Shown: piece by piece, positions 1 through 48,100 of the stretch
How the letters are laid out: the number at the start of each line of letters is the position of its first letter
Position numbering within the stretch: position 1 is the stretch's first letter
From: Heptranchias perlo
Lineage: Eukaryota
Assembly (NCBI RefSeq): GCF_035084215.1
Contig: NC_090344.1
Coordinates: 43,276,001-43,340,000, forward strand
DNA: 64,000 nucleotides
Direction: 5' to 3'
Made by a program: the position numbers and the translations under genes
Notes under the pieces: model-generated
Told to the model about the DNA's origin: nothing
Database searches by the model: none
The model's input: the letters and a program-made list of their open reading frames with translations, nothing else

Positions 1-444
1 AGCCATCATCTTGTCTGTTACACATCTTCTGAACCCTCTGGTAAATCATCTGTCACAGCCTTGACTGGAAGTGAGACCACACACTTTTAAACCAGCTGTC
101 AGGTGGACTCCCACCAAAGCTATGTTGATGGCTATTTTGTTTCTTCCCAAATCACTTTATCTGGGGCAGTAGATGACTCATCTCTATTTTCAACTAACTT
201 GGAGGCTGTCTCTCTCTCGAGCACTGCCCTCTTTGCTATCCTACCTCCTTCATATCAATGATCTTCTCTCATCAAACCTGTTTCACTCTCGGTGATTCCA
301 CTCCAGATTCATCCAACTTGTTTCAATTTGTACACCCTCAGTGCATACAATCTCCAGTCATAACAGTGCTATGGCTGAATTGACTTTATCTCATCCACGC
401 CTTTCAAAGAGGCAACAAAAATCTTGGTTATCTTCAAAAACAAT

Positions 445-5811: not shown

Positions 5812-6940
5812 CACTTATAAGATAGACAAGGGTGTGTCTATGGATGCTGTCTATATGGACTTCCAGAAGGTTCACACGATATTATTAGCAAAATTGAGAG
5901 TGCACATAATTGGAGGTAGCCTTTTAATGTGGGTTGGACATTGGATGATAGGTAGGAGACAAAGAGTGGGGAAAAAGGGCCTGATTGGTGGGATGTGACA
6001 AGTGGTGTTCCCCCAAGGATCTGTTCTGGGGCCTCAAATTTTCAACCTTATTTATGAATGACTTGGATGAAGGAATAGAGTTGTATATCAAGTTTTGCAG
6101 ATGACACTAAGTTAGGAGGGACAGGAAGTCGTGCAGCAGGGAGCAGAGACTTGCAAAGGGACATAGATTGAGTGGGCAAAACTATGGCAAATTGAGTTCA
6201 ATGTGACCAAGTGTGAGGTCATCCATTTTGGATCACAGAAAGTCAAATCGGAATATTTTCTAAATAGAGGCTGTAGAGGAGCAAAGATTTGGGAGTCCAT
6301 GTACACAAATCATTAAAAGCCAATAGACAGGTACAAAAAAGGGTAATGGAATGTTGGTCTTTATCTCTGGAGGGCTAGAATACAAAAGGGAGGAAGTTAT
6401 GCTTCAGCTGTACAGAGCCTTGGTCAGTTCCCATCTGGAGTACTGCAGGACGGATATATTGGCCTTGGAGGAGGTGCAGTAAAGATTCACCAGAATTATA
6501 CGAGTGGTTAGAAGGTTAAATTATGAGGATAGGTTGGATAAACTTAGCTTGTATTCTCTTGAGTATAGCAGATTGAGGGATGATCTGATTGAGGTGTTTA
6601 AAATGTTAATAGAATTTGATCGGGTAGATACGGAAAAACTATTTCCTCTGATGGGGGAAATCAAGAACAAGGGGACATAATCTTAAAATTAGAGCTAGAC
6701 CATTCAGGAGCAAAATCAGGAAACACTTTTTCACAAAAAGGATAGTAGAAATTTGGAACTCTTCCCCAAAAGGCTGTGGATGCTGGGACAATTGGAACTA
6801 TCAAGACTGAGAACGAGATATTTTTGTATCAAGGGATATGGAGCAATGGTGGGAAAGTGGAGTTTAGGTACAGATCAGCTATAATCTAATTGAATGGTGG
6901 AGCAGGCCCAGGGGACTGAATGGCTTACTAATGTTCCTAA
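5812..6940 (+). mobile_element. CR1 LINE 3' portion, decayed
   Basis: VYMDFQK, GVPQG-like and FADDTK remnants, CR1 3' UTR. Confidence 0.85.
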
Positions 6941-8989: not shown

Positions 8990-10696
8990 AGATCTCTCAA
9001 AGCATTAAAAAGGAAATTAGGAAAGCAAAGAGAGGGCATGAAAAAATACTGGCAAGCAAAATTAAGGAAAGTCCCAAAATGTTTTATAAATACATAAAAA
9101 GCAAGATGATAACTAAGGAAAGAGTAGGTCCTATTAGAGACCAAAAAGGTAACCTCTGTGCAAAGGTGGAAGATGTGGGTATAGTTCTTAATGAATACTT
9201 TGTGTGTCTGTCTTCGCAAAAGAGGGGAACGATGCAGAGTCTGTAGTTAAGGAGGAGGAATGTGAAATATTGGATGGGATAAACATAGTAAGAGAGGTAT
9301 TAAGGGGTTTAGCATCTTTGAAAGTAGATAAATCACCAGGCCTGGATGAAATGTATCCCAGGCTATCAAGAGAAGCAAGGGAGGACACGGTGGAGGCTCT
9401 GACCATCATTTTTTGATCCTCCCTGGCTGCAGGTATGGTGCCGGAGGATTAGAAGACTGCTAACGTTGTACCATTGTTTAAAAAGAGAGAAAGAGATAGA
9501 CCGAGTAATTACAGGCCGATTGGTCTAACCTCGGTGGTGGGCAAATTATTGGAATCAATTCTGAGACCGAGCATAAATCGTCATTTAGAAAGGCACGGGT
9601 TAATCAAGGACAATCAGTATGGATTTGTCAAGGGAAGGTCGTGTCTGACCACCTTGATTGAATTTTTTGAGGAGGTAACAAGGAGGGCCGATGAGGGTAA
9701 TGCGTTTGATGTAGTGTACATGGATCTTAGCAAGACTTTTGACAAAAAAGTCTGACTGTCATGGGATCCAAGGGAAAATGGCAAGTTGGATCCAAAATTG
9801 TCTCAGTGGCAGGAAGCAAGGGTAATGGTTGACAGGTGTTCTTGTGACTGGAAGGCTGTTTCGAGTGGGGTTCCGTAAGGCTCAGCACTAAGTCCCTTGC
9901 TTTTTGTGGTATATATTAATGATTTGGACTTGAATGTGGGGGGCTTGATCGAGAAGTTTGCAGATGATACAAAAATTGGCCGTGTGGTTGACAGTGAGGA
10001 GGAAAGCTGTAGACTGCAGGAAGATATCAATGGACTGGTCAGGTGGGCAGAAAAGTGGCAAATGGAATTCAATCCAGAGAAGTGTGAGGTGATGCATTTG
10101 GGGAAGGCAAACAAGGTAAGGGAATACACAATAAATGGGAGGATACTGAGAGGTGTAGAGGAACAAAGGGACCTTCGCATGCATGTCCACAGACACCTGA
10201 AGGTAGCAGGACAGGTAGATAAGGTGATTAAAAAGGCATACAGGATACTTTCCTTTATTTGCTGAGGCATAGAATATAAGAGCAGGGAGGTTATGCCAAA
10301 GCTGTATAAAACATTGGTTATGCCACAGCTTGAGTACTGCATACAGTGATTGCACTAGAGAGGGTAGAGGAGATTTACGAGGATGTTGCCGGGGCTGGAG
10401 AATTTTAGCTATGAGAAAAGATTGGATAGGCTGGGGTTGTTTTCTTCAGAACAAAGGAGGCAGAGGGGAGATTTAATTGAGGTATATAAAATTATGACGG
10501 GATGAGATAGAATGGATAGGGAGGACCTATTTCCCTTAGCAGAGGGGGCAGTGACCAGATTTAAAGTAATTGGTAGAAGGATTAGAGGGGAGCTGAGGAG
10601 AAATTTTTTCACCCAGAGGGTGGGGGTCTGGAACTCTCTGCCTGAAAGGATGGTAGAGGCAGAAACCCTCAACTCATTTTAAAAAGTGCTTGGATG
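8990..10696 (+). mobile_element. CR1 LINE, 5'-truncated and decayed; its 3' tail resumes at 12382-12518 after a nested insertion
   Basis: ORF2 fragments [36 protein letters not shown]; tail split at ttggat|gtgcacttgaag. Confidence 0.9.
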
Positions 10697-10794
10697 CCCC
10701 TATTCAAGAAGTGGAGATGCCGGTGATGGACTGGGGTTGACAATTGTAAACAATTTTACAACACCAAGTTATAGTCCAGCAATTTTATTTTAAA

Positions 10795-10833
10795 TTCACA
10801 AGCTTTCGGAGGCTTCCCCCTTCGTCAGGTGAA
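10795..10833 (-). ncRNA. Minimal type-I hammerhead ribozyme motif (mirror copy)
   Basis: Exact reverse complement of 10860-10898 in the other arm of the palindrome. Confidence 0.7.
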
Positions 10834-10859
10834 CGATGTGAAATGATCATTTCACATCG

Positions 10860-10898
10860 TTCACCTGACGAAGGGGGAAGCCTCCGAAAGCTTGTGAA
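10860..10898 (+). ncRNA. Minimal type-I hammerhead ribozyme motif
   Basis: Stem I ttcac/gtgaa; core CTGACGA; extra A; stem II ggggg-aag-cctcc; GAAA; palindromic AGCT in place of stem III; predicted cleavage after CUU (10893). Confidence 0.72.
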
Positions 10899-13800
10899 TT
10901 TAAAATAAAATTGCTGGACTATAACTTGGTTTTGTAAAATTGTTACCTATTCAAGAAGGGAGTGAGACAGAAAGCAGGTAACTGTAGACCAGTTAGCCTA
11001 ACACCTGTCATTGGGAAAATGCTAGAATCCATTGTTAAGGAAGTAGTAGCAGGACATTTGGAGACTCATAATACAATCAAGGAGAGTCAACATGGTTTTA
11101 TGAAGGGGAAATCGTGTCTGTCAAATTCATTAGAGTTCTTTGAGGAAGTAACGGGCAGGGTGGATAAAGGGGAACCAATGGATGCAGTATATTTGGATTT
11201 CCAAAAGGCATTCGATAAGGTGCCACATAAAAGATTACTGCACAAGAGCTCATGGTGTTGGGGGTAATATACTGGCATGGATAGAGGATTGGCTAACTAA
11301 CAGAAAACAAAGAGTCGGGATAAAAGGGTCATTTTCAAAATGGCAATCTGTAACTAGTGGGGTGCCGCAGGGATCAGTGCTGGGGCCTCAACTATTTACA
11401 ATATATATCAGTGACTTGGATGAAGGAACAGAGTGTCTTGTGGCCAAATTTGCTGTTGATACAAAGATCGGTGGAAAAGCAAGTTGCGATGAGGACACAA
11501 AGTGTCTGCAAAGGGATATTGACAGGTTATGCGAATGGGCAAAAATTTGGCAGATGGAATATAATGTGGGAAAATGTGAAGTCATCCACTTTGGGAGGAA
11601 AAATAAAAAAGCAAAATATTATTTGAATGGAGAAATACTATAAAATGCTGCGGTACAGAGGGATCTGGGTGTCCTCGTACATGAAACACAAAAAGTCAAC
11701 ATACAGGTGCAGCAGGTAATCCGAAAGGCAAACGGAATATTGGCCTTTATTTCTAGGGGAATGGAGTATAAAAGCAGGGAAGTCATGCTACAACTGTACA
11801 GGGTGCTGGTGAGACCACACCTGGAGTACTGCGTACAGTTCTGGTGCCCTTATTTAAGGAAGGACATACTTGCATTGGAGGCAGTTCAGAGAAGGTTCAC
11901 TAGGTTGATTCCGGGTATGGAAGGGTTGTCTTATGAGGAAAGATTGAACAGGTTGGGTCTATACTCATTGGAGTTTGGAGGAATGAGAGGAGATCTTATT
12001 GAAACATACAAGATTCTGAGGGGACTCGATAGGGTCGATGCTGAGAGGATGTTACCCCTCATGGGGGAATCTAAAACTAGGGGGCATAGTCTCAGAATAA
12101 GGGGTCGCCCGTTTAAGACGGAAATGAGGAGGAATTTCTTCTCCCAGAGGGTCGTGAATCTTTGGAATTCTTTACTCCAAAAAGCTGTGGAGGCTGAGTC
12201 ATTGAATACATTCAAGGCTGAGTTAAACAAATTTTTGATCAGCAAGGGAATCAAAGGATATGGGGAAAAGGTGGGAAAGTGGAGTTGAGGTAAAAATCAG
12301 ATCAGCCATGATCTCATTGAATGGCGGAGCAGGCTCGAGGGGCCGAATGGCCTACTCCTGCTCCTAGCTCTTAGGGCTTACGTGCACTTGAAGTGCCATA
12401 ACCTACAGGGCTACGGACCAAGTGCTGGAAAGTAGGATTAAGCGGGATAGCTCTTTTTCGGCCAGCACGGACACGATGGGCCGAATGGCCTCCTTCTGTG
12501 TTGTAACTTTCTATGATTAGTCACAGTACGTGGGATGATATGGTGTTTTATAAGGACGGAAACTTTATAAATAACACATTTATTTAGTGCTTTATTACAT
12601 CCTCAGCACATCGCATCCAATTAATTACTTTTGAAATTGCTGTTATCTGGGTACATGTGACAGCTAATGTGTGCACAGCAAGATCCCACAAATGGCAAAA
12701 AAGTTGAATGAACAGTTAATTTGCTTTTGGTTCGTATTGGTTATGCCAAGCAATTCACAACGTATTCTCTTCTGCTCAGGTGAGACTGTATCCCTTTAAG
12801 GTCACAATGTCTAATTGCTGTTCTGTAAACACTGAATGAGTTCATTTAGTTTAATTGCGACTCAAGTTGCAGGTCAGAACACTGGTTGTGTTTTGTCTTT
12901 TTGACAGAAATTAGAGTGTGACACTTGAAATATGTGCACGGTGCACCTTTTTTAATACATTACTAGTGAATGTCCTGTGGTGCTGCTCACAGTAAAGCGG
13001 AGAATGTGTCATTTTATAAGGACAGGGACGTTATACCATGTAAAACACAATGTATTAATCATCCGCTAACGTAACATTTGTCCCTTTTAGACGACACAGT
13101 TGGTAACTAAAGATTCTGGGAGTTCCCATTGGATACATGTTATGATCTTAACAAACAGTCAAGACATTTAAAACCACTGCCAAGAACATTTGTCTGCAGT
13201 CTGGGTAAGTGCACAATCATCTGGGGACCAGAACTATGTAATACAATAAAGGTATGTCAACACTATGCATGTGAACAGGAATGTATATGTTACCCACCCA
13301 GCAGTACAGAGCGAGGCTGCTCCCTTCTATTTTGAGGTGGCTCAAGGAGCAGGTTAGGGAAACAAATTCACACAAAAAGGGTTTTAGAATATGGAAGTCA
13401 ATTACATTCAAGAAGGAATTGGATGTACAGGAAAAGATTGGAGCAGATAGCTCTGATGTGATGCTAGCCCTGGCAGGGACACAGTGGAATAAATGGCCCC
13501 CTCTGCTGAAACCTGTATGATTCTACAAATTATTAATGTTGCATATCAAACACAACTGACCACACACTTTCCACATGCCAAGCATAACTGCAGTTGGGCC
13601 TCCTTAAAGAGCACCGAGGAATGATTATTATTTGAAGTCTACATCATTGTCCCAAAAATGCACTGCTTCTGCCCTACTGTTAATGTACAGTGGAGGATGT
13701 GAGAACTGACATATTCCAAACCATGTGCTAAGAAGAATTAGTTTGTGAACTCTTAGAAAATATAAAAATGTTTATTCATTGAAAAAACAAAGTGTATAAT

Positions 13801-15411: not shown

Positions 15412-17025
15412 TCAGCTGATTGTATCTTTAATGCATTCCATCATTAACGGACCCATGTCCCTCAATATTTTCTGATATTCCATAAGTGCCTGACTGTAAG
15501 AGTCACGCTGTGTTACAAAGGACCGGAAGAGGTTTATAGGCTCTGCATACAGAAGCATTTCTGGAATTCCAATTTGCTTAGGAAAGGTCTGATTTCCGAT
15601 CATAAATCGGTGGAGCCGTTTCTCATCCAAGCATTTTCCAAGATACTTCAAAATGTCTTTTAGCCTATGTTCCAGGTGACACTCGTGCCAGTTTGAATAT
15701 GGCTGACTTAACAACAGATGCATAAGGACAGTCTTAAAAAGGTAGGACCCAAGAACGTTCCGCTGGTCTGGAGAGCTACGCAGCTTTTCAGTTAGAAAGA
15801 TCAATATTTGAAGGCACTTGAGGTGACAGCTGTTTTTGGGTACACTTTTTGCCATGATTTTCAGAAACCTATACTCGCAGACAGCACAGGATATATGCCA
15901 GTAGGTCGTGGACAGCACAGTATTCTTCGTGTAATCAGAAAAGCTGGATACGAGATAGACGTCTGAATCCTTCAGCCTCACAGCAGGGAAGACTTTAATG
16001 TAGATGTTTCGTCCCGACTGATACTGGACTTTTAAGCCACAGCAACCAGTAATATTGTGGAAGGAAAGTTCAAAATCATACTTATGACACACTTTGTTCC
16101 AGGATTTTGCCAGTGTAATCCTGAACCATTTCAGTACTTTCTTGTAGTCCAAATACCACTCAGAGCACACGATGGAAGCTAGGGAATTGGTACTAACATC
16201 AGCTTCAAACCTTTTGCTGTGAATAAGGCAAAGAACATCTCCTTCAAGTTCAGTGTTTTTACATAGGCAGCCCAAGTCAGCACTGCCTGGCGTTACCATA
16301 ACAATCCGGCCATAACTTTGTTTATCAGTTGGGATGTCACAGCAACAGATCTCTGGTTTAAAGCAATATCCATCCTGAAGAAAAATTGGAACCAAAATAT
16401 CATACACCGAAGGCATCTTACAGCCCCATTTCTCAAACTGACTCCCAATGCCCACACAGTCTTCAAGGATCAGCTCAGAATCCCATTGGCAAAGATTCCT
16501 ACAGGCTTCCAAGAGGTCATCGACAAAGCTTTCTACAAATTCACACGTCTGCATCGGCTCTTGACTCACATTCTGAATACACGTATTGTAAAACTGATCC
16601 AGCACACATTTTTCAGGAATATTCAAAATGTTGCTGTAAATTCTCTGAGGAAATTCATTTTCCTTTTCTCCATCCTCCTCTTCCTCGCTGTTATAGTCAT
16701 GTGGTGTCTGTGGCCGCGTGTCCTGTCTCCACAATTCCAAGAACAGAATTGTGACCATTAGGAGAATATTCCAGGTGTTCCAATCCATCTGCGTTGAGTT
16801 TTCTGCTTTTGCAAATGTATTGTCTTTCATTTCATACTCAGGATTATTTTTCTCATCCACTTCTTTCTGGAGCCGCTCCATTTCCACCTTGTACTGGTCC
16901 TCCTGCTCCTTCATCCTTGACTGGACCTCTTCGCTCTCAACTTCATCACTCAGCAGGCGGGGATGGTACAAACTCCCCGTGATCACCAGGAGGCACACGC
17001 TGAAAAGCCCTAATAGTGCTGGCAT
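15412..17025 (-). CDS. ITPRIPL1: Inositol 1,4,5-trisphosphate receptor-interacting protein-like 1 (ITPRIP/DANGER family, Mab-21/cGAS-like fold), single coding exon, 537 aa
   Basis: Intact 537-aa ORF: N-terminal hydrophobic signal, coiled coil, TM segment (WNILLMVTILFLELWRQ), then TCEFVESFVDDLLEACR, LEDCVGIGSQFEKWG, YDILVPI, GDVLCL, HKYDF, CHLKCLQI, FKTVLMHLLL, AEPINLF. As recalled, these motifs are closer to ITPRIPL1 than to ITPRIP. A splice acceptor (ttgttgttcatag|G ATG) lies immediately before the start codon. Confidence 0.88.
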   Translation of the reverse strand: MPALLGLFSVCLLVITGSLYHPRLLSDEVESEEVQSRMKEQEDQYKVEMERLQKEVDEKNNPEYEMKDNTFAKAENSTQMDWNTWNILLMVTILFLELWRQDTRPQTPHDYNSEEEEDGEKENEFPQRIYSNILNIPEKCVLDQFYNTCIQNVSQEPMQTCEFVESFVDDLLEACRNLCQWDSELILEDCVGIGSQFEKWGCKMPSVYDILVPIFLQDGYCFKPEICCCDIPTDKQSYGRIVMVTPGSADLGCLCKNTELEGDVLCLIHSKRFEADVSTNSLASIVCSEWYLDYKKVLKWFRITLAKSWNKVCHKYDFELSFHNITGCCGLKVQYQSGRNIYIKVFPAVRLKDSDVYLVSSFSDYTKNTVLSTTYWHISCAVCEYRFLKIMAKSVPKNSCHLKCLQILIFLTEKLRSSPDQRNVLGSYLFKTVLMHLLLSQPYSNWHECHLEHRLKDILKYLGKCLDEKRLHRFMIGNQTFPKQIGIPEMLLYAEPINLFRSFVTQRDSYSQALMEYQKILRDMGPLMMECIKDTIS

Positions 17026-18029
17026 CCTATGAACAACAAGCAGAGAACAGATGTTCAGAAGGTGTGTCTATAATTCAGTGGGAACTGCATTAGTACATCT
17101 ATCAGAGGCTGTGCCCCCAATGAGAGACCTTGCAAGTCTTTGAATAATTCATCCTCCTTCACTGTTGTGTAATATATACAGCTTTCTTTCCTGTCCTAAA
17201 ATTGCCCCATGCTGTCTCATAGGTGTTGATGGCAGCAATAAATGAACACTGGGCACTGAGGGGGACATTTTGACTTTGCACAACCAATGCAGAGCATCAC
17301 CCATCGACCATACCTAGTCAGAAATCGTGGGCACTCTGCCACCCATTAAAATTAATGGCCAGAAAATCATGGATGGTACGCCCACTTTCCTGATCTGCAC
17401 TAGTAGCACAAACGCAGGAAAATCGGCCCTAAAATATCAGGGGCTGTAAAAATATAAATATGCCACAACACCCAGTGTGCAAATACTCTCTCTTCTAGGA
17501 AGCATGAGAAGATTCAGAATCCGGTTTGTACAATGAGCATATGCCACAGAATCTGGAGCAATGTGGTTCATATTTGGTTTACATTACAACAATGTATCCC
17601 AGCCAGTTGTACTCTACACCATAGGTTTTCAATTTATTATTGAAGAATCTAATTGAAACACCAAAACTCACAGCGCAGGGCATCAAGGTTGAAAAGAGTC
17701 GGAAAGAAGGTGAGTCGTGATTAGGTGATGCCAAGCTTGAGCTTTAAAAGCCTACGTGAGGAAGGAAAGACTGGGGAGTGGTAAGGAGTTCCACAATTGT
17801 GAATTCTTGGGAAAGAATGAGGTAGGGTAGGAATACTACATGAATCTTGATTTCAAAACCATGAGGATTTAGGGAGGAGCAAGATAGTACGAGGCAGGAT
17901 ATCTCAGAATAAGAGAGGAAATGGAAGAGACCAGACCAGAGAAGGATCAATAAAAGAGTCAAGAAAGGTTGCAAGAGAGAAAGGGAAGGGGGGTGGGGAG
18001 GCAGGAGAAGGATCACCAGTCAGACGACA

Positions 18030-27900: not shown

Positions 27901-30900
27901 GATGGGAAAAAAGCAAAAAAAAAGAAATAAAATGACCTTTACATTCCTGGACTTCCCCTTCTGCTTTCCTGAGAAGCCATCAGTATAAGTCTTTGCATGA
28001 ACATCATGGGATCCTTCCCACAGACAACTCTTGCCTGAGATCAGCAAATTTGTCTCTTTGGACAATCTGGGCACCTGGTCAAAGGACCGAGGATTAGTAC
28101 GAGAACTCAGTGTTGAAAATGTGATTGTTAAAGGACTATTACTCTAACCACGCAAATAATTTCTTTTTATAAAAGCATTCTCTCTGATTAGCAGTGGATT
28201 ACTGACCATTTGTACTCAGCCATGCAGGAAACTTTCTTTTAAAATTTTAACTCCATTTCTCTCTCCCCAGCTGCTGCATCTAGTAAACTGTTCCAGAAAT
28301 TTCCTCTGGATGTGTACAAGGCTTTATCTGATGAGCCGCTGACTGGGAACTTCCATCACTTTTCTGTTAATGTGCAGGTAAGATATTGCATGTTGTTCAT
28401 TGTATGCAGCACAGTCAGCAAAGAAGTGCACTGGAAGTGAGGCAGGACCTGCAAATATACCAGCTCCAGTTCCAGGATGTGCCACTGGATCTGTTTGTTA
28501 GTGCAACTCATTCCACTACATCCAGTGCAGTTAAACTCGGTAGAACAACAGCATTGTTCCTGAACCTTGGCATAATTCAGTGTTTTCAGGAGAGGAGGGG
28601 AAAATTGTGTGGGTGGAAGAGCAGAAGAAGCAATAACATCTTGCACCAGTCAGGTTTTTTTCCTACAAGATAGTTACGGATGAGGATGAGCATTCAGCCC
28701 ATCTAAATTTATCCATCCAGAAAGATCCTAAAGCCTCCCCATCACGGCAAATGTTTATTCCCCTTATCTGTATTGTAATTTTTTTTTCTACAGGCTTTTC
28801 TGGGAGATGAGAAACTAAGTAAATTCTATTCAATCCTGTCCACTAATAATGACAGAAAGGGTGTGGAGTTTGTGTCTACTATGGAGGGTAAGTTGGACAG
28901 TGTAACTGCTATTGTAGAATTAATGTCACTCTAGCAGAAGCATTAATGGCATTGCTGTAGCATGTACAAAAGAGCATTGTACGTCTTCCTCCTTTATTTA
29001 ACCTCCATTTTCAGATAAATAGGCCATCATCCAAACATGGGATCCACGAGGACACTGTCCAGCTAGTTGTGACAGTCGTGTGCTTTCCATTAAGCATGCC
29101 TCAGTTCTTTTACACCTGCTGTCAGCATTGTACATAAAGTTTCTAGTCACTTTCTTTAATCAATCTTTTCACATTAATTCACATCATCTTTGTAGTCTTT
29201 CACAAAGCTTCACCAAAGTGTAAACATCAAAGATTTGTTTTTATCCAGTTCTTTCAATTTTAGGAAAATCATTGTTCTCAGCCTCTGATTGTGGAACATT
29301 TAGAACCATAGAAAAGATACAGCACAGAAGGGGGCCATTCGGCCCATCGTGTTCGCACCCCGGCTCGAAGAACAACCAGGTTCCCATTCTAATCCCACCT
29401 TCCAGCACCCGGTCCGTAGCCCTGCAGCTTACAGCACTTTAGGTGCAGGTCCAGGTACTTTTTAGAAGAGTTGAGGTCCCTGCCTCTACCACCAATTCGG
29501 GCAGCAAATTCCATATACCCACCACCCTCTGGGTAAAAAAGTTTTTCCTTGTGTCCCCTCTAATCCTTCTGCCAATCAGCTTAAATCTATATCCTCTAGT
29601 TCTTGAACTCTCTGCTCAGGGAAACAGGTACTTCCTGTCTACTCTATCTGGGCCCCTCCATAATTTTGTACACCTCAATCAAATCACCCCTCAGCCTCCT
29701 CCGCTCCAAGGAAAACAACCTCAACCTATCCAATCTCTCCTTGTAGCTGCAATTTTCAAGCCCTGGCAACATTCTTAATCTTCTCTGCATTCTCTCCAGA
29801 GCAATTACGTCCTTACTGCAATGTGGTGACCAGAACTGCACACAATACTCCAGCAGTGGCCTTACCAGCGTTTTATACAGTTCCATCATTACATCCCTGC
29901 TTTTGCATTCTATACCTCGGCTAATAACGGAGAGCATTCCATACACCTTCTTCACAACCTTATCTACCTGTACTGCCACCTTCAGGGACCTGTGCGCATG
30001 CACTCCAAGGTCTCTCACTTTCTCTACCCCTCTCAATATATTCCTGTTTACTGCGTATTCCCTTTTACTGTTTGCCCTCCCCAAGTGCATTACCTCACAC
30101 TTCTCTGGGTGAACTCCATTTGCCACTTTTCCGCCCACTCCACCAACCCATTGATATCTTCTTGGAGTCTACAGCTATCCTCTTCACTATCAACTACACG
30201 GTCAATTTTTGTGTCGTCTGCAAATTTGCCAATCATGCCCCCTACATTCAAGTCCAAATCATTGATATATACCACAAACAGCAAGGGACCCAACACTGAG
30301 CCCTGTGGCACACCACTGGAAACAGATTTCCATTCGCAAAGACATCCATCGACTTTTATCCTTTGTTTCCTGTTACTGAGCCAATTTTAGATCCAATTCG
30401 CCACATTTCCCTGTATCCCATGGGCTTTTACCTTTCTGACCAGTCTGCCATATGGGACCTTGTCAAATGCCTTACAAATTCCATGTAGACAACATCCACT
30501 GCACTACCCTCATCAATCCTCCTTGTCACTTCCTCAAAGAATTCAATCAGATTTGTAAGGCATGACCTACCCTGAACAAATCCATGCTGACTACCCCTGA
30601 TTAAACCATTCCTTTCCAAATTACAGTTTATCCTATCTCTCAGTATTGATTCTAATAGTTTGCCCACCGACCTATAATTGTTCGGCCTTTCCCTCATACC
30701 CCTTTTAAACAATGGTATTACGTTTGCAGTCTTTCAGTCCTCTGGTACCTCCCCTATATCTAGTGAGAATTGGAAAATGATCCTCAGAGCATCTGTTATT
30801 TCCTCCCTGGCTTCCTTCAATAGCCTAGGAAACAATCCATCCGGCCCTGGTGACTTATCAACTTTCAAGGATTCCAGTCCCTCTAGTATTTCCTCTCTTG

Positions 30901-33900
30901 TTATGTTTATCTTATCCAATATTTCATACCTCTCCTCTTTAACTACTACGTCCGGATCATCCCTATCTTTTGTGAATACGGAGACAAAATATTCATTTAA
31001 AACCCTACCCACATCCTCTGCTTCTACACACAAGTTACCCTTATCATCCCTAATAGGTCCCACCTTTTCCTTAGCTATCCTCTTGTTCTTAATGTACTGA
31101 TAAAACATCTTTGGGTTTTCTTTAATCTTCCTCGCTAATATTTTTTCATGCCCTCTCTTTGCTCTCCTTATTTCCTTTTTTATGTCATCCCTATACTTTC
31201 TATACTCCTCTAGGCTTTCTGCAGTATTTAGTTTTCTGTGGCAGTCATAAGCTTTCTTTTTCAGCTTTATCTTGCCCCGTATACTTCTAGACAACCAGGG
31301 GCTCTTGATTTGGCAGTGCCACCCTTTTTCTTTGAGGGGACATGTATGCATTGTACCTGTGGAATTTCACTTTTTAGTGCCTCCCACTGGCTTACCACTG
31401 ATTTCTCCTCAAGTAGTTGTGTCCAGTCCACTTCTGCCAAATCACCTCTTAGTTCTGTAAAATTTGCCTTCCCCCAATTTAAAACGTTTACTCCTGATTT
31501 AGCTCTGTCCTTTTCCATAATAATGCAAAAACTAACTGAATTGTGGTCACTATCCCCAATATGGTCACCCACTGTCACTTCACCCACTTGCCCATCTTCA
31601 TTTCCCAGGACTAAATTTAGAATTGCATCCCCTCTTGTTGGGCTTGTCACGTACTGGCTAAAAAAGTTCTCCTGGACACTGATCAAGAATTTTGTGCCCT
31701 CTGTGCCCCTCGCACTGTTTGAATCCCAGTTGATGTTAGGGTAGTTGAAATCCCCAACTATAATTGCCCTCTTATTTTTGCACTCAGAAATTTGCCGACA
31801 TATTTGTTCTTCTATCTCCCTTTCGCTATTCGGGGGTCTATAGTACAGTCCTAGTAGTGTGACTGCCCTTTTTTTATTTCGTAAAATTTGTGTCTTGTTT
31901 TTGTGTTCTTTGTTCAATGTTTAAAAATTCTGTCACTTTGTTCAGTGACATCCTTGATTTGGGTCAACGATAACATCAGGTTTCAAGTTCCACATTTTGT
32001 CACAGATCCTCCCCAGTGACCAACAACTGTGATACTTGCTTATGTTGCTAACTGCATTCTCCCCCCCCCCCCCCCCTCGCCTCCTCCGCTTTCCAGAAAT
32101 GCATGCCTTTACGAAGTTCAGCAGTCGGGCTGATCATGGGTATTGAATTCACCACAAACAAATCCTCCAAATCTATGTGAGCTCATTGATACTTGGCACA
32201 AAGAAGCAAGTTGCAGCTCATTTTAAAAAATACAACTCCATCTCGGCTATGCATTAGAGAATTTGGGGGGGTTCCCAGATGTGGTGAAGCCCTGTTCTGC
32301 ATTGACTATAAAGGTTGGCATGAATGTTGGTCTTCACTGGTTTGCATAATCTCCCCAAGCTCGACCCATAAGACTCATGGTTCCATAGTTCTGATGCCAA
32401 TCAACAGCAGAGCAAATTAAGGTGACTTATGCATGGTTGATTCCACCTCCCTCAGCAGGAGACTTGACTAACATCCAACCTTTTTTTTGGTGACTATATT
32501 GGAGTCCTCTTCATCCTAGCAATTGCGGATTGCTCTGTGGTGTTCTGCATAGAAACAAGACACCGAAAATCATGAGTACAGAACAGAGCACCATTACTGC
32601 CAGAATAAAAATGCTGAAGTGGGGTATTCTAGGGAAAGCGCACAGAACTGTATCCAACCATACCCATTGGATCAAGTTTAACCATGAGTTACTCCAGCTG
32701 CAGAGACATCGTGAACAGTTTTGTTGGTGTAAAACTATTAAAACAATCATTAACCCTAAGGTGCAGTACATTTGGATCCCAAGGAATTTGGCTTCACAGG
32801 TCTGCCTGGCTGAGAATTTCAAGCTTCTCCTTGGGTCCACAGGTCAAAAAACCAAAGGTTTCCTTGTCAGGGTGGAACAAGTTGAAACCACAGTGAAATA
32901 AGGAAACAGTAACAACTGGAAATTCCTCCAAGGAGGAAGATTTCTTATTTCTATATAAAGAGGTTTACAGTTTTATTATACACGGCACACAGAGATAATA
33001 TTTCCACATGTTGTTACATGTAACCCATGGCAAAGTCATGTAGCCACAAGGATGAATTCAACACTTGGAGGAATTTCTAGCCACAGGAATCAATGGCAGC
33101 CCCTCGATTGAATTCGAGCAAGAGGTCAGCCCATTCTATCAGTGTGGTCCCAGAGATAGAAGCCCCTTTGCTCTCACTGTCTCAATGATGAGCTCAGCCT
33201 CTAGCTCAGTATGTATTGGCCTTGCTACTAAACGATTCCACTAGTGGTGTTACCAAGTGAAGGGGAAGGAAACTCTTGAGGGAGAGGACTGTACCATATC
33301 TACATGGGAACACGAGTAGGCCATTCAGCCTGTTCCGCCATTCAGTTAGATCATGGCTGATGTGTATCTTAACTCCATCTACCCGCCTTGATTCCGTAAT
33401 CCTTAATACCCTTGCCTAACAAAAATCTATCTCTACTGCTAAATAAAAAGCTGATATATTTAATTTATTTTCAACCAATGGAGACTGATATTTCACATCT
33501 CCACTTGCATCCTCAGCCCCTCTGGTAACAATGTGAGGATTGCCCATGTACACCGCAGAATAGTTTAATTCACTAATAGGAGGTAGCACTTCAGAGTAGG
33601 CTAGGGAGACATTATTGTTGAAGTTAATAGGACAATATGGGTCATGTGTGATATCTCTGTACAGGACATCCTTGCAATATATATATAACTGAATCAGCTG
33701 AGGAGGGATACAGCAGGGCTTTGTGAGGCAACAATATTTCAGACTGGGTAATGTGCATTTTTCTTAGCTACTACTGGCACATCTCTCATGGTTTTGCTCA
33801 CATTAAGTCTTAGGAAATGCTCTTTTATGAGGGTCAGGAACATTATATCATATAACTATTGGTACGGTACAGCTGTGTGTTATCAAGCTGAACCTTTAAA

Positions 33901-42116: not shown

Positions 42117-45100
42117 GTAAGGAGCCTCTTTTTTTTAATTTTTCTCTCTCCAGTTGTCTCTGCTCTTAGGGTTTTTTTTTGCTGGCTTAAATTAGGGGTG
42201 TTGTAGGTTTTGTTTTGTGATCCGATGGTGAGCCTGAGCTCCTGAGAACAATGAGAAGGACGATTCCCCCCCGCCACCCCCCCGCCGCACGGCAGCGGTC
42301 TGCCATCGCCAGGCTTTTGTCTCCGGTCGCACCGCAGGCAAGAGCCCCCTGCCCTGTGAAGGAGTCAGAGCCACTGAGCAACCGCGTAATGGGGTTCGGA
42401 GTAAGAGGAATGCATAGTACCCGAGTTCGGGACAGGAAGGTTATTGGGGGTTCGGAGTATGGAATAGACAAATCTGGGCTTCATGATAAGAGGAAGGAAA
42501 AGTGCTGGGCTTCAGAGTAAAAATAATGCAGAGTAGCAGGGTTCAACGTATGAGGAATAGAGTAGTGGGTTCAGTGTATGAGGAATGCAGAGTCGTGGGG
42601 TTCAGGGTGAGTGGAATGCAGAGTAGTGGGGTTCAGGGTGAGTGGAATGCAGAGTAGTGGGGTTCAGGGTGAGAGGAATGCAGAGTCATGGGGTTCAAGG
42701 TATGAGGAATGCAGAGCCGTGGGGTTCAGTGTATGAGGAATGCAGAGTCGTGGGGTTCAGGGTGAGAGGAATGCAGAGTAGTGGGGTTCAGGGTGAGAGG
42801 AATGCAGAGTTATGGGGTTCAAGGTATGAGGAATGCAGAGCAGAGTCGTTGGGTTCAAGGTATGAGGAATGCAGAGCCGTGGGGTTCAGTGTATGAGGAA
42901 TGCAGAGTCGTGGGGTTCAGGGTGAGAGGAATGCAGAGTCGTGGGGTTCAGGGTGAGAGGAATGCAGAGTAGTGGGGTTCAGGGTGAGAGGAATGCAGAG
43001 TCATGGGGTTCAAGGTATGAGGAATGCAGAGCAGAGTCGTTGGGTTCAAGGTATGAGGAATGCAGAGTCGTGGGGTTCAGTGTATGAGGAATGCAGAGTC
43101 GTGGGGTTCAGGGTGAGAGGAATGCAGAGTCGTGGGGTTCAGGGTGAGAGGAATGCAGAGTCGTGGGGTTCAGGGTGAGAGGAATACAGAGCCGTGGGGT
43201 TCAGGGTGAGAGGAATGCAGAGTCGTGGGGTTCAGGGTGAGAGGAATGCAGAGCCGTGGGGTTCAGGGTGAGTGGAATGCAGAGCCGTGGGGTTCAGGGT
43301 GAGTGGAATGCAGAGCCGTGGGGTTCAGGGTGAGTGGAATGCAGAGCCGTGGGGTTCAGGGTGAGAGGAATGCAGAGCCGTGGGGTTCAGGGTGCGAGGA
43401 ATGCAGAGTCATGGGGTTCAGGGTGAGAGGAATGCAGAGTCGTGGGGTTCAGGGTGAGAGGAATGCAGAGCTGTGGGGTTCAGGGTGAGAGGAATGCAGA
43501 GCTGTGGGGTTCAGGGTGAGAGGAATGCAGTGTCGTGGGGTTCAGGGTGAGGAATGCAGAGCAGTGGGGTTCAGGGTGAGAGGAATGCAGAGCCGTGGGG
43601 TTCAGGGTGAGAGGAATGCAGAGTCATGGGGTTCAAGGTATGAGGAATGCAGAGCAGAGTCGTTGGGTTCAAGGTATGAGGAATGCAGAGTCGTTGGGTT
43701 CAAGGTATGAGGAATGCAGAGTCGTGGGGTTCAGGGTGAGAGGAATGCAGAGCAGTGGGGTTCAGGGTGAGAGGAATGCAGAGTCATGGGGTTCAGGGTG
43801 AGAGGAATGCAGAGCCGTGGGGTTCAAGGTGAGAGGAATGCAGAGCTGTGGGGTTCAGGGTGAGAGGAATTCAGAGTCATGGGGTTCAGGGTGAGAGGAA
43901 TGCAGAGCTGTGGGGTTCAAGGTGAGAGGAATGCAGAGCCGTGGGGTTCAAGGTGAGAGGAATGCAGAGCTGTGGGGTTCAAGGTGAGAGGAATGCAGAG
44001 CCGTGGGGTTCAAGGTGAGAGGAATGCAGAGCCGTGGGGTTCAGGGTGAGAGGAATGCAGAGCCGTGGGGTTCAGGGTGAGAGGAATGCAGAGCCGTGGG
44101 GTTCAGGGTGAGAGGAATGCAGAGTCCTGGGGTTCAGGGTGGGAGGAATGCAGAGCCGTGGGGTTCAGGGTGAGAGGAATGCAGAGCCGTGGGGTTCAGG
44201 GTGAGAGGAATGCAGAGTCGTGGGGTTCAAGGTGAGAGGAATGCAGAGCCGTGGGGTTCAAGGTGAGAGGAATGCAGAGCCGTGGGGTTCAAGGTGAGAG
44301 GAATGCAGAGCCGTGGGGTTCAGGGTGAGAGGAATGCAGAGCCGTGGGGTTCAGGGTGAGAGGAATGCAGAGCCGTGGGGTTCAGGGTGAGAGGAATGCA
44401 GAGCCGTGGGGTTCAGGGTGAGAGGAATGCAGAGCCGTGGGGTTCAGGGTGAGAGGAATGCAGAGCCGTGGGGTTCAGGGTGAGAGGAATGCAGAGCCGT
44501 GGGGTTCAGGGTGAGAGGAATGCAGAGTCGTGGGGTTCAGGGTGAGAGGAATGCAGAGTCGTGGGGTTCAGGGTGAGAGGAATGCAGAGCCGTGGGGTTC
44601 AGGGTGAGAGGATTGAGGAGTCGTGGGGTTCAAGGTATGGGGAATGCAGAGTCGTGGGGTTCACGGTGAGAGGAATGCAGAGCCGTGGGGTTCAGGGTGA
44701 GAGGAATGCAGAGCCGTGGGGTTCAGGGTGAGAGGAATGCAGAGCCGTGGGGTTCAGGGTGAGAGGAATGCAGAGTCGTGGGGTTCAAGGTGAGAGGAAT
44801 GCAGAGTCGTGGGGTTCAGGGTGAGAGGAATGCAGAGTCGTGGGGTTCAAGGTATGAGGAATGCAGAGTCGTGGGGTTCAAGGTGAGAGGAATGCAGAGC
44901 CGTGGGGTTCAAGGTGAGAGGAATGCAGAGTCGTGGGGTTCAGGGTGAGAGGAATGCAGAGTCGTGGGGTTCAAGGTATGAGGAATGCAGAGTCGTGGGG
45001 TTCAGGGTGAGAGGAATGCAGAGCCGTGGGGTTCAGGGTGAGAGGAATGCAGAGCCGTGGGGTTCAGGGTGAGAGGAATGCAGAGCCGTGGGGTTCAAGG

Positions 45101-48100
45101 TGAGAGGAATGCAGAGTCGTGGGGTTCAGGGTGAGAGGAATGCAGAGTCGTGGGGTTCAAGGTATGAGGAATGCAGAGTCGTGGGGTTCAGGGTGAGAGG
45201 AATGCAGAGCCGTGGGGTTCAGGGTGAGAGGAATGCAGAGCCGTGGGGTTCAAGATGAGAGGAATGCAGAGTCGTGGGGTTCAGGGTGAGAGGAATGCAG
45301 AGCCGTGGGGTTCAGGGTGAGAGGAATGCAGAGTCGTGGGGTTCAAGGTATGAGGAATGCAGAGTCGTGGGGTTCAGGGTGAGAGGAATGCAGAGCCGTG
45401 GGGTTCAGGGTGAGAGGAATGCAGAGCCGTGGGGTTCAGGGTGAGAGGAATGCAGAGCCGTGGGGTTCAGGGTGAGAGGAATGCAGAGCCGTGGGGTTCA
45501 GGGTGAGAGGAATGCAGAGCCGTGGGGTTCAGGGTGAGAGGAATGCAGAGCCGTGGGGTTCAGGGTGAGTGGAATGCAGAGCCGTGGGGTTCAGGGTGAG
45601 AGGAATGCAGAGCCGTGGGGTTCAAGGTGAGAGGAATGCAGAGCCGTGGGGTTCAAGGTGAGAGGAATGCAGAGCCGTGGGGTTCAAGGTGAGAGGAATG
45701 CAGAGCCGTGGGGTTCAGGGTGAGAGGAATGCAGAGCCGTGGGGTTCAGGGTGAGAGGAATGCAGAGCCGTGGGGTTCAGGGTGAGAGGAATGCAGAGTC
45801 ATGGGGTTCAGGGTGAGAGGAATGCAGAGCCGTGGGGTTCAGGGTGAGAGGAATGCAGAGCCGTGGGGTTCAGGGTGAGAGGAATGCAGAGTCGTGGGTT
45901 TCAAGGTGAGTGGAATGCAGAGCTGTGGGGTTCAGGGTGAGAGGAATGCAGAGTCGTGGGGTTCAGGGTGAGAGGAATGCAGAGTCGTGGGGTTCAGGGT
46001 GAGAGGAATGCAGAGTCGTGGGTTTCAAGGTGTGAGGAATTCAGAGTCATGGGGTTCAGGGTGAGAGGAATGCAGAGCCGTGGGGTTCAGGGTGAGAGGA
46101 ATGCAGAGTCGTGGGGTTGAGGGTGAGAGGAATGCAGAGTCGTGGGGTTCAAGGTGTGAGGAATTCAGAGTCATGGGGTTCAGGGTGAGAGGAATGCAGA
46201 GCCGTGGGGTTCAGGGTGAGAGGAATGCAGAGCCGTGGGGTTCAAGGTGAGAGGAATGCAGAGCCGTGGGGTTCAGGGTGAGAGGAATGCAGAGCCGTGG
46301 GGTTCAGGGTGAGAGGAATGCAGAGCCGTGGGGTTCAAGGTGAGAGGAATGCAGAGCCGTGGGGTTCAAGGTGAGAGGAATGCAGAGCTGTGGGGTTCAA
46401 GGTGAGAGGAATGCAGAGCCGTGGGGTTCAGGGTGAGAGGAATGCAGAGCCGTGGGGTTCAAGGTGAGAGGAATGCAGAGTCGTGGGGTTCAGGGTGAGA
46501 GGATTGCAGAGTCGTGGGGTTCAAGGTATGAGGAATGCAGTGTCGTGGGGTTCAGGGTGAGAGGAATGCAGAGCCGTGGGGTTCAGGGTGAGAGGAATGC
46601 AGAGCCGTGGGGTTCAGGGTGAGAGGAATGCAGAGCCGTGGGGTTCAGGGTGAGTGGAATGCAGAGCCGTGGGGTTCAGGGTGAGTGGAATGCAGAGCCG
46701 TGGGGTTCAGGGTGAGAGGAATGCAGAGGCGTGGGGTTCAGGGTGAGAGGAATGCAGAGCCGTGGGGTTCAGGGTGAGAGGAATGCAGAGCCGTGGGGTT
46801 CAGGGTGAGTGGAATGCAGAGCCGTGGGGTTCAGGGTGAGTGGAATGCAGAGCCGTGGGGTTCAGGGTGAGAGGAATGCAGAGTCGTGGGGTTCAGGGTG
46901 AGAGGAATGCAGAGTCGTGGGGTTCAAGGTATGAGGAATGCAGAGCCGTGGGGTTCAGGGTGAGAGGAATGCAGAGTCGTGGGGTTCAGGGTGAGACGGA
47001 TGGAGAGTTGTGGGGTTCAGTGGATGAAGAATGGAGAATATAGGAGTTCAGTAAGGCTGATGTGTTTGCAAAAAAGCCTGACAAGAAAATGGGATTTATG
47101 GGCCCTATGCATAGAAAGATTGTCTGTGTGTGAGTATAGGTATTTCTGCTCTGTGTGTGTGAGTGTAGATGTGTGTGCCCCGCATGCATGGGTGTAGATG
47201 AGTGGGCCCCGCGGGCGAGGGTGTAGATGAGTGGGCCCCGCGGGCGAGGGTGTCGATGTGTGGGTTCCCCCCCCGTGCGTGAGGGTGTCGATGTGTGTAT
47301 TGGAGAGAGATGTTCTGTGCAGCCCTATCAGCAGCAAAGCTACATGTTGAATATTGTCACCTGGACCACTTGCCTGCTATGCAGCCCAGGAGTGATATGA
47401 GAGAGAGAAACATTGACTCGGTGTCAGCTCCTGTACATGTACAGCACGCAGCGAGTAAAAGGGTACGATTCACTGCCGTCTGGTACTGTACGGTCCGTGT
47501 GTATCTTAGTGTCAGCTCACACAGAATGTACAGACAGAAAAAGAGAATGAGAGAAAGTGGCAGAGAGGAAGAATGAATGAAAGAAAGATAGAGAGAGAGT
47601 CCAAGTGAGACTGAAAAAGAAAGAGCAAATGAGACAGAGAAACAGACAGAGTGAAGTATGGGACAGAGAGGGACAGATAATGGCAGAGGGTGAGAGAGAG
47701 GGAAAGGGAGAAAAAGCAGACAAGGAGTCAGAGTTGGGGAAAAGAGAAAGAAAGTCAGAGGGAGAGAGAAACAAAGAGAAGGAAACAATGAGAAACAGAG
47801 CAGGACTGAATGAGACAGAGGGTGTGAGAGAGAGACTGAAACAGAAACAGAGAAATGGACTTGCACAAACTCAGATCGGCAGATTGGTCGGGTCTGGCAT
47901 GCAGATTGGAGGATGTGGAATGCAGTTTTGAGAAACCTTTATTCAATATTATGAAATAAAACACCAGTTTTTAAACATAACGACGAGATCTGCACCTGTA
48001 TTTTACTTGGACAGTTTCTGATCTGGCAGATGCAATTTGATGCGGATAAATGTGAAGTGATGCACTTTGGGAGGAGCAACATGGAGAGGCAGTATAATCT

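What the first reader, a model, noticed from the sequence alone, without database searches (positions are those of the whole stretch)
10699..10958. 196-bp spacerless palindrome with a hammerhead ribozyme motif on each strand
Seen: 10749-10944 is an inverted repeat of two 98-bp arms with one mismatch, centred on GA|TC (10846/10847). The insert is bounded by a 13-bp direct repeat (cctattcaagaag). Each arm holds a hammerhead core: stem I ttcac/gtgaa, CTGACGA, stem II ggggg/cctcc, GAAA, AGCT, and a CUU cleavage triplet. Established: Penelope-like elements carry minimal type-I hammerheads with a palindromic stem III thought to act as dimers, and they often insert with an inverted pLTR. Inference: this is a recent non-autonomous Penelope insertion. 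Transcription from either strand would give a long hairpin that sequesters the ribozyme and could be a Dicer/ADAR substrate, and the DNA could extrude a cruciform.
Basis: partly seen in the sequence, partly recalled or inferred. Interest (0 to 1): 0.7.

Follow-up and report, generated by a model that had tools for sequence, protein, structure and literature searches.

The report
Twin-primed Penelope leader palindrome
This 234-base mirror-image insertion is one of thousands of stubs of a Penelope-type jumping gene in this genome, each likely built afresh when both cut ends of the target DNA copy the first ~100-140 bases of the element's RNA and run off its predicted start, so it is ordinary alone but the set is a usable record of how these elements insert.

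Summary
In detail: 98-bp arms with one mismatch, a 13-bp duplication and a minimal hammerhead motif on each strand.

Both arms are the 5' leader (pLTR) of a young Penelope-like element: 3,081-bp tandem unit, 902-aa RT ORF, at least 48,298 leader copies. Exact patterns find at least 2,882 short head-to-head palindromes, and this centre is unique, so the stub is not a self-copying family.

Of 111 sampled pairs, 104 join one long and one short end inside a 10-16-bp duplication. Arm 5' ends pile up 30-31 nt after a TATA box in two subfamilies with different leaders. They do not pile up at the hammerhead cut site.

Best model: both nicked strands prime at the two internal start sites, the cDNAs run off the RNA 5' end, and they are joined by microhomology. 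At least 57 palindromes have arms of different variants, so some may use two RNAs.

The architecture is published (PMC3846280, PMC8557442, PMC11167929). The run-off twin-priming reading was not found in my six paper searches, but this scan noted it before on other DNA. Cleavage, transcription and Dicer/ADAR effects are untested.

The parts
10699..10711 (+). Left copy of the 13-bp target-site duplication
   Evidence: sibling duplications are 10-16 bp, 12-14 bp in 91 of 104
10712..10748 (-). 37-nt 'tail' (leader positions 99-135): extension from the short to the long end site; the parent's ATG follows at position 140
   Evidence: tail equals the stretch between two RT start sites in PMC11167929 (sections read)
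10749..10846 (-). Left arm: leader positions 1-98 of the Penelope pLTR, subfamily A
   Evidence: 135/135 identical with tail to L031 from position 6764
10795..10833 (-). Minimal type-I hammerhead motif, minus strand; predicted cut between 10800 and 10799
   Evidence: sequence; stems 97.7% paired over 13 variants; cleavage untested
10840..10853 (.). Head-to-head junction. Both arms begin 28 nt after the first T of the parent's TATA box, at an initiator-like heptamer; the predicted RNA start (+30) is the A at 10844 (minus) and 10849 (plus)
   Evidence: initiator consensus recalled; transcription start inferred
10847..10945 (+). Right arm: leader positions 1-98 plus one base, ending at the short end site; one substitution at 10931
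10860..10898 (+). Minimal type-I hammerhead motif, plus strand; predicted cut between 10893 and 10894
   Evidence: cleavage untested
10946..10958 (+). Right copy of the 13-bp target-site duplication
9000..10698 (+). Left flank: decayed LINE-like repeat (host of the insertion, not part of it)
   Evidence: 73% identical over 1.77 kb to window 29440-31184
10959..12365 (+). Right flank: decayed LINE fragment with a reverse transcriptase remnant
   Evidence: RVT_1 E=2e-11 in the frame 11152-11640; repeats elsewhere in the window

Best explanation
The palindrome is two copies of the 5' leader of a Penelope-like retrotransposon joined head to head inside one 13-bp target-site duplication, likely made in a single insertion event in which both nicked target strands primed reverse transcription and each cDNA ran off the predicted 5' end of the element's RNA. 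Shown: identity to the parent, the duplication, the one-long-one-short rule, unique centres, and the pile-up of arm starts at TATA+30/31. Inferred steps: (1) the GIY-YIG domain cuts AT-rich DNA with a 12-13-nt stagger; (2) each 3' end pairs by 1-3 nt with one of two internal start sites (leader positions about 103-105 and 138-141); (3) when the protein sits on the 5' copy of the leader, only about 100 and 140 nt lie ahead of it, so both cDNAs stop at the transcription start; (4) the two cDNA ends are joined by short microhomology, often with small templated or A/T insertions. Priming on a downstream copy of the leader would give the kilobase-long arms also seen. The stub is probably a dead end: it lacks the TATA box and the ORF-side sequence that the Anolis protein needed. 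The hammerheads are passengers from the parent leader. Whether one RNA is copied twice or two RNAs are used is open: most pairs match, and about 1 in 20 differ at one diagnostic site.
For: Parent: RVT_1 hits, GIY-YIG-like C-terminus, 3,081-bp tandem unit with a 902-aa ORF. Ends: 104 of 111 distinct head-to-head pairs are long+short, 5 short+short, 2 truncated, 0 long+long. All 104 have a 10-16-bp duplication, 29% GC, overlapping the element end by 1-3 nt in 67 of 104 (long) and 77 of 104 (short). Starts: in 93 arms chosen by a 3' anchor, 37 of 68 at risk stop in TATA+11..35, 18 of 86 in +36..60, 7 of 93 in +61..85, and only 5 of 28 over the 400 nt from -40 to -439. The mode is +30 in subfamily A (8 of 48) and +31 in B (6 of 45), although the hammerhead core starts at +46-48 in A and +40-41 in B. 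In 64 pattern-selected A palindromes 76 of 128 arms start at +30/31. Palindromes centred at the 6-nt self-complementary hammerhead stem III number only 107, against 1,266 A and 991 B at the leader start. Different variants on the two arms: 57 genome-wide at one site against 484 matched C/C; 8 of 30 fetched carry further linked diagnostic differences; background C/G differences are 2 in 3,782 site pairs. In vitro, the Anolis PLE protein cuts and extends both strands, starts at two internal sites and is predicted to be a dimer (PMC11167929).
Against: No RNA 5'-end data: only contigs were available, which cannot show a start. The window's own arms start at +28, not +30, with a blunt symmetric centre, which a fold-back could also give; 12 of 64 sampled centres are perfectly symmetric. 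A minority of arms run past +30 to self-complementary sites at about +15 to +26, which pure run-off does not explain. No A-by-B hybrid palindrome was found with one pattern (0) and the first 50 B/B palindromes listed match at a stem-I variant, so free mixing of two RNAs is not the rule. Gene conversion could make both the discordant arms and the shared private changes (3 of 110 pairs). The 93-arm sample comes from the first 5.5 Mb of one contig. The D. virilis Penelope promoter was reported as internal and TATA-less (PMC2377424, passages), so a TATA-set start is not general for the class.
Confidence: 0.65

Rival explanations
1. Fold-back or self-priming: one strand is made and the second arm is copied from it, either by cDNA snap-back or by self-priming on an antisense template as proposed for rotifer Penelope elements.
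For: Proposed in PMC3846280 from palindromes at inverted junctions (passages). The window's centre is blunt and symmetric; 12 of 64 centres are symmetric; about 95% of arms match at a diagnostic site; 4 private changes are shared by both arms in 3 of 110 pairs; 0 A-by-B hybrids.
Against: 52 of 64 centres are asymmetric, many with losses or insertions. 57 palindromes carry different variants on the two arms, with no bias for long or short arm (15 versus 13 of 30). Both outer ends show 1-3-nt overlap with the target and fall on two fixed sites, as expected if each was primed separately.
Confidence: 0.15
2. Twin priming is right, but the stop near TATA+30 is not the RNA start: it is an RT stall at leader structure, or longer inverted insertions collapsed afterwards at microhomologies.
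For: Several centres sit on self-complementary 4-10-mers upstream of +30 in both subfamilies. Many asymmetric centres use 3-nt microhomology. Inverted insertions range up to 2.6-kb arms.
Against: The mode stays at +30/31 while the leader sequence and the distance to the hammerhead change by 6-7 nt. The better 6-nt self-complementary site is used far less (107). Single, non-palindromic arms also start at +29 to +33 (L067, L072, L079, L088).
Confidence: 0.15
3. The palindrome is a self-propagating non-autonomous element (MITE-like or retrozyme-like) that is copied as a unit.
For: Thousands of similar-sized units exist. Simple centres recur (one 5 times, one 3 times among 64). Retrozymes are reported to derive from pLTRs (bioRxiv 10.64898/2026.07.22.740005, abstract and passages).
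Against: This centre is unique in 3.25 Gb. There are 56 distinct centres in 64 siblings. End positions vary independently from copy to copy. The arrangement is head-to-head, not tandem. The stub has no TATA box and no ORF-side sequence.
Confidence: 0.04
4. The palindrome is a fold-back artefact of assembly or library preparation.
For: It is a spacerless inverted repeat. No listed contig piece spans the junction in the read lay.
Against: It has a target-site duplication, an asymmetric tail, one mismatch between the arms and different unique flanks, and the same anatomy holds in 104 of 111 siblings. Contigs of two DNA runs cover the bin just past the centre at depth 16 and 23; this is weak support, since the sample may be the assembly's own.
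Confidence: 0.01

Closest known systems
EN+ Penelope-like element insertions with an inverted 5'-truncated pLTR, one-sided 30-40-bp tail and TSD (Adineta Pen2a_Av, PMC3846280; Fig. 2 legend of PMC8557442; D. virilis form in PMC2377424)
   Same: Head-to-head inverted pLTR with a palindromic junction, tail on one end only, short TSD, TATA plus initiator-like motif in the pLTR (as in Pen2a_Av), hammerhead in the pLTR.
   Different: Here the whole insert is just the two leaders, with no ORF, and this minimal form is very common (41 of 93 sampled arms). The tail is nearly obligatory on exactly one side (104 of 111) rather than optional. The data favour twin priming on sense RNA over the antisense self-priming proposed in PMC3846280.
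Poseidon from Anolis carolinensis (PAc), PMC11167929
   Same: RT plus C-terminal GIY-YIG-type ORF, two internal start sites bracketing the tail, AT-rich targets, both strands cut and extended, no sign that hammerhead cleavage is needed.
   Different: In PAc the ORF starts in hammerhead stem II and priming occurs 111-118 nt into the ORF; here the ATG lies at the long end site, about 90 nt after the hammerhead. That paper does not treat the inverted arm or run-off at the RNA start in the sections I read (main text and part of the methods; supplements not read).
Minimal hammerheads of metazoan PLEs (PMC4209133)
   Same: Type I, extra base between 9 and 10.1, G10.1-C11.1, 5-bp stem I, palindromic 15.2-16.2 with no stem III. 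That paper also notes pairs 100-700 bp apart on opposite strands.
   Different: Position 17 is U (CUU triplet; recalled as the weakest cleaving NUH class) and position 7 is C or G. Activity of this variant is untested.
L1 twin priming (recalled; Ostertag and Kazazian 2001, not read)
   Same: Both target strands prime, the cDNAs meet at microhomology, and an inversion lies inside one TSD.
   Different: In L1 the second primer lands at a variable internal site and the two parts are different sequence. Here both starts are fixed, about 35 nt apart, so the same sequence is copied twice and a palindrome results.
Animal non-LTR retrozymes (bioRxiv 10.64898/2026.07.22.740005, abstract and passages)
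   Same: Non-coding, hammerhead-bearing, pLTR-related.
   Different: Retrozymes are tandem arrays that amplify as families; this is a single head-to-head pair with a unique centre.

Membership tests
EN+ Penelope-like element (parent family) | Single ORF with a reverse transcriptase | tested here: met
   902-aa ORF in tandem copies L084, L100, L102; RVT_1 E=2.5e-10; YIDD motif visible
EN+ Penelope-like element (parent family) | C-terminal GIY-YIG endonuclease | tested here: inconclusive
   Pfam gave no GIY-YIG hit. A CxxC plus VYLI..YIG motif is visible. ESM Atlas score 0.96-0.97, with 11 of 30 hits in a set carrying PF01541 (31% of the shown cluster's members). Likely present; not folded.
EN+ Penelope-like element (parent family) | Partial-tandem organisation forming pLTRs | tested here: met
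   Anchors 3,081 bp apart in L102; also L084, L089, L100
EN+ Penelope-like element (this insertion) | Inverted 5'-truncated copy, one-sided 30-40-bp tail, TSD | tested here: met
   37-nt tail and 13-bp TSD here; 104 of 111 siblings
EN+ Penelope-like element (parent family) | Hammerhead motif inside the pLTR | tested here: met
Penelope/Poseidon clade (versus Neptune, Nematis) | RT phylogeny | not tested
   No tree was built; domain order alone does not separate these clades
EN+ Penelope-like element (parent family) | Retained spliceosomal intron (present in some PLEs) | tested here: inconclusive
   A candidate GT..AG at leader 48-116 resembles the D. virilis layout (75-bp intron 46 bp after the start), but no spliced genomic copy and no such joint in four guessed-RNA contig sets
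Minimal type-I hammerhead ribozyme | Conserved core (CUGANGA, GAAA, NUH), stems I and II, palindromic 15.2-16.2 | tested here: met
   In 13 selected variants the core is invariant except position 7; 97.7% of stem cells paired, one pair with a change on both sides in 4 variants, slid controls 26-55%. The variants are close relatives, so covariation is thin.
Minimal type-I hammerhead ribozyme | Match to a curated Rfam hammerhead model | tested here: not met
   E<=10
Minimal type-I hammerhead ribozyme | Self-cleavage as dimer or with protein help | not testable with these tools
   No genomic footprint: 0 of 93 unbiased arms start at the cut; 5 of the first 50 listed have an arm starting there. 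The dimer fold (-18.9) is no better than two monomers (-9.9 each).
Non-LTR retrozyme | Tandem head-to-tail arrays of a hammerhead monomer | tested here: not met
   Single head-to-head pair; no tandem array at this place
Self-propagating non-autonomous family (MITE-like) | Many dispersed copies sharing the same internal structure | tested here: not met
   Centre unique; 56 distinct centres in 64

The most novel reading that the evidence does not exclude
Penelope elements insert by obligate twin priming from a dimeric complex. One subunit starts at each of the two tail sites on each cut strand, both copy to the capped 5' end, and in a measurable minority of events each subunit carries its own RNA. 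The thousands of leader palindromes would then be the retrotransposon equivalent of strong-stop DNA, mapping the transcription start and settling how the inverted pLTR forms, against antisense self-priming.
Probability: 0.4. Interest if true: 0.68.

Novelty: new member of a known kind. Interest (0 to 1): 0.42.

Why it matters
How Penelope-like elements build their inverted ends is described as still undefined (PMC8557442, passages), and the published proposal is self-priming on an antisense template (PMC3846280). This family gives thousands of young, independent events with a strict long+short rule, a stop anchored to the TATA box in two different leaders, and some arms of different variants. 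Together these turn the question into direct tests: 5' RACE, and a two-barcode RNA mixing assay with the intact 902-aa protein. The locus itself is an ordinary dead-end stub with no shown effect on the host. A rough extrapolation of about 10,000 such hairpin-forming stubs could matter for double-stranded RNA load and palindrome stability, but that is untested.

Tried and rejected
Rfam search: no hammerhead family hit.

Hammerhead cleavage leaving a footprint in arm starts: not seen as a pile-up. 0 of 93 unbiased arms start at the cut. In the first 100 of 518 asymmetric junctions most second arms start at GAA microhomologies near leader 22-27 and about ten fall in 46-52, several ambiguous (read by eye). 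107 palindromes centre near the cut, mostly on the self-complementary stem III.

A-by-B hybrid palindromes: none with one pattern.

Spliced leader: no genomic copy and no joint in contigs.

Cap-derived extra G: 13 G, 6 A, 5 T among 24 informative arms. This is confounded by templated insertions that also put a G there, and subfamily B arms showed no such G by eye; not counted as support.

Shared A-to-G changes as a sign of one edited RNA: only one of 110 pairs (L101, two changes); too few to decide.

Expression: no RNA holder is listed on record; four runs guessed to be RNA hold the leader, as contigs only; no conclusion drawn.

PDB sequence search with the ORF: 0 hits. Pfam GIY-YIG: no hit.

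The first walk-based 5'-end caller misplaced arms with indels and was replaced by alignment. Seven of 100 arms were dropped as identical duplicates before counting. Loci L004, L005, L019, L024 and L066 duplicate others and were skipped or collapsed.

Paper searches found no paper describing twin priming or run-off leader palindromes for PLEs. Subscription papers and the supplements of PMC11167929 and PMC4209133 were not seen and may bear on this.

Full report
Observation. The sequence is as described. Arms 10749-10846 and 10847-10944 are complementary over 98 bp with one mismatch, and a 13-bp direct repeat lies at 10699-10711 and 10946-10958. The insert between the repeats is 234 bp: a 135-nt unit on the minus strand followed by the first 98 nt of the same unit plus one base on the plus strand. 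The flanks are decayed LINE fragments. Rfam gave no hammerhead hit, but the motif is plain by eye and matches the minimal type-I hammerhead of metazoan Penelope-like elements (PMC4209133, results and discussion read). In 13 selected variants from this genome the core is constant except position 7, and 97.7% of stem cells pair, with one pair changed on both sides. The variants are closely related, so this is modest support.

Parent element. The arm has 1,018 first-look candidates in the 3.25-Gb genome; the 40 scored gave 51 matches at 98-100% identity. An exact 23-mer from the arm occurs 48,298 times. Long copies carry an RT ORF next to the arm. Full tandem units are 3,081 bp with a 902-aa ORF whose ATG is at leader position 140. 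The C-terminus shows CxxC and a GIY-YIG-like motif; Pfam does not call it, and the ESM Atlas leads to GIY-YIG-bearing clusters. Two subfamilies, A and B, have 98% identical proteins but different sequence between the TATA box and the hammerhead. The window's long arm is 135/135 identical to an A copy, L031. The intact 902-aa frames I saw were B copies; the full-length A copy in my sample (L032) is broken into shorter frames. Clade was not tested by a tree. Earlier scan notes call the host a shark; I did not test that.

The palindrome is a common product of this family, built anew each time. Exact two-motif patterns count 1,014 plus 252 A/A palindromes, 991 B/B, 518 with one arm cut shorter and 107 centred near stem III. 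That is at least 2,882, with 0 in every reversed control. Of 93 arms picked by a 3' anchor, 41 have an inverted partner within 260 nt, which would extrapolate roughly to 10,000; the sample is the first 5.5 Mb of one contig. The window's centre occurs once, and 64 sampled siblings have 56 different centres.

Outer ends. Every arm ends at one of two sites. Of 111 distinct pairs, 104 are one long plus one short, 5 short plus short, 2 truncated and none long plus long. All 104 have a 10-16-bp duplication (12-14 bp in 91) of 29% GC, overlapping the element by 1-3 nt at most ends (an earlier count on 73 gave 69). This fits the Anolis PLE protein, which cuts and extends both strands at AT-rich DNA, starts at two internal sites that bracket the tail and is predicted to be a dimer (PMC11167929, main text and part of the methods read). 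I infer that each cut end primes at one of the two sites.

Inner ends. In the 93-arm sample (100 matches less 7 identical duplicates), 7 of 93 stop in TATA+61..85, 18 of 86 in +36..60, 37 of 68 in +11..35, 3 in the next 50 nt, and only 5 of 28 over the following 400 nt. The mode is +30 in A, on the A of an initiator-like heptamer (consensus recalled), and +31 in B. The hammerhead core lies 16-18 nt further on in A and 9-10 nt in B, so the stop follows the TATA box and not the ribozyme. In 64 pattern-selected A palindromes 76 of 128 arms start at +30 or +31. A better self-complementary site, the 6-nt stem III that both cDNAs must pass first, is used only 107 times. The simplest reading is run-off at the transcription start. 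Against it: there is no RNA-end evidence (only contigs), this copy starts at +28, a minority run on to self-complementary sites at about +15 to +26, and the D. virilis promoter was reported as TATA-less (PMC2377424, passages). A TATA plus initiator was noted in the rotifer pLTR (PMC3846280, passages).

One RNA or two. At hammerhead position 7, 57 A palindromes genome-wide carry G on one arm and C on the other, against 484 C/C out of about 1,266, so about 4.5%. Random pairing would give close to half (inferred from these counts). My 64-locus sample overstated the rate (10 of 64). Of 30 discordant loci fetched, 8 have further linked diagnostic differences, neither allele prefers the long arm (15 versus 13), and background C/G differences are 2 in 3,782 site pairs. 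No A-by-B hybrid was found, the first 50 B/B palindromes listed are concordant, and 3 of 110 pairs share private changes. So most events use one RNA or RNAs of one source, and a minority use two templates or were converted later. These data do not separate those two.

Hammerhead function. None of the 93 unbiased arms starts at the predicted cut, and there is no pile-up, though 5 of the first 50 listed have an arm starting there. The Anolis paper likewise found cleavage unnecessary for insertion and no reads ending at the cut. In the stub the full hairpin is predicted at -178.5 kcal/mol and would bury both motifs. Transcription of this locus, Dicer or ADAR action and cruciform extrusion were not tested.

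Artefact check. The duplication, tail, mismatch and sibling anatomy make an artefact very unlikely. Contigs of two DNA runs cover the bin past the centre at depth 16 and 23, but no spanning piece is listed and the sample may be the assembly's own.

Comparison and verdict. The architecture (inverted pLTR, palindromic junction, one-sided tail, TSD) is published, with antisense self-priming as the proposed cause (PMC3846280; PMC8557442; PMC8969392, passages). Opposite-strand hammerhead pairs are mentioned in PMC4209133. My six searches found no paper with the twin-priming run-off reading; unseen supplements and subscription papers may hold it. This scan's earlier, mostly unreviewed notes reach the same reading on other DNA, in this genome and others. 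My reading was noted before I saw them, and they are not support. Two of them report stops at the ribozyme cut in other genomes, which I do not see here. The locus is an ordinary new member of a known kind. The value lies in the population, which makes an open mechanistic question testable. Interest 0.42.

Noticed in passing
window 15412-17067 (-): Uninterrupted 551-aa frame with a hydrophobic N-terminus, a coiled-coil-like stretch and Mab-21_C (E=2.6e-8); resembles an ITPRIP-family host gene (name recalled, not tested). The palindrome lies about 4.5 kb beyond its stop codon; whether a transcript reaches it is unknown.
   Followed up: partly
window 42567-47020: 4.45-kb G-rich tandem array of a 31-bp unit, 143 copies, 93% matches; it explains the strong GC skew at 44-48 kb. 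A second 31-bp array lies at 59603-60084.
   Followed up: no
leader positions 48-116 (window 10731-10799, minus strand): Candidate 69-nt GT..AG intron starting exactly at the predicted hammerhead cut, 45 nt after the predicted start, like the 75-bp intron 46 bp after the start in D. virilis Penelope. It would contain the short priming site. No spliced form was found.
   Followed up: partly
L031:1520-6901 (G000:C2): 5.4-kb insertion with 2.6-kb arms 99.7% identical, long plus short ends and a 13-bp duplication: the same anatomy at the large end of the size range.
   Followed up: yes
L114 centre (G000:C1, about 5,168,700): The centre holds about 20 nt that resemble the antisense of the element's own ORF end, about 230 nt upstream of the leader, suggesting a longer cDNA was present at the same site (by eye).
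   Followed up: no
L094 and L075 centres: Centres contain 50-60 nt of non-element DNA; in L094 it resembles the neighbouring host repeat (by eye), as expected from repair-type synthesis.
   Followed up: no
L101:5660-5770: Both arms share two private A-to-G changes 2 nt apart, as one edited RNA copied twice would give; the only such case in 110 pairs.
   Followed up: partly
subfamily B leader, e.g. L102, L084: The B leader has a self-complementary stretch about 17-26 nt after the TATA box on which a number of perfect palindromes are centred; A has a 4-nt equivalent.
   Followed up: partly
L088:5320-5358, L164:493-531: A further related hammerhead variant (different stem II loop and stem I ends) sits next to two arms, pointing to another Penelope family inserted at the same spots.
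   Followed up: no
L036, L093: Single leader arms duplicated as part of a host tandem satellite, that is passive amplification.
   Followed up: no
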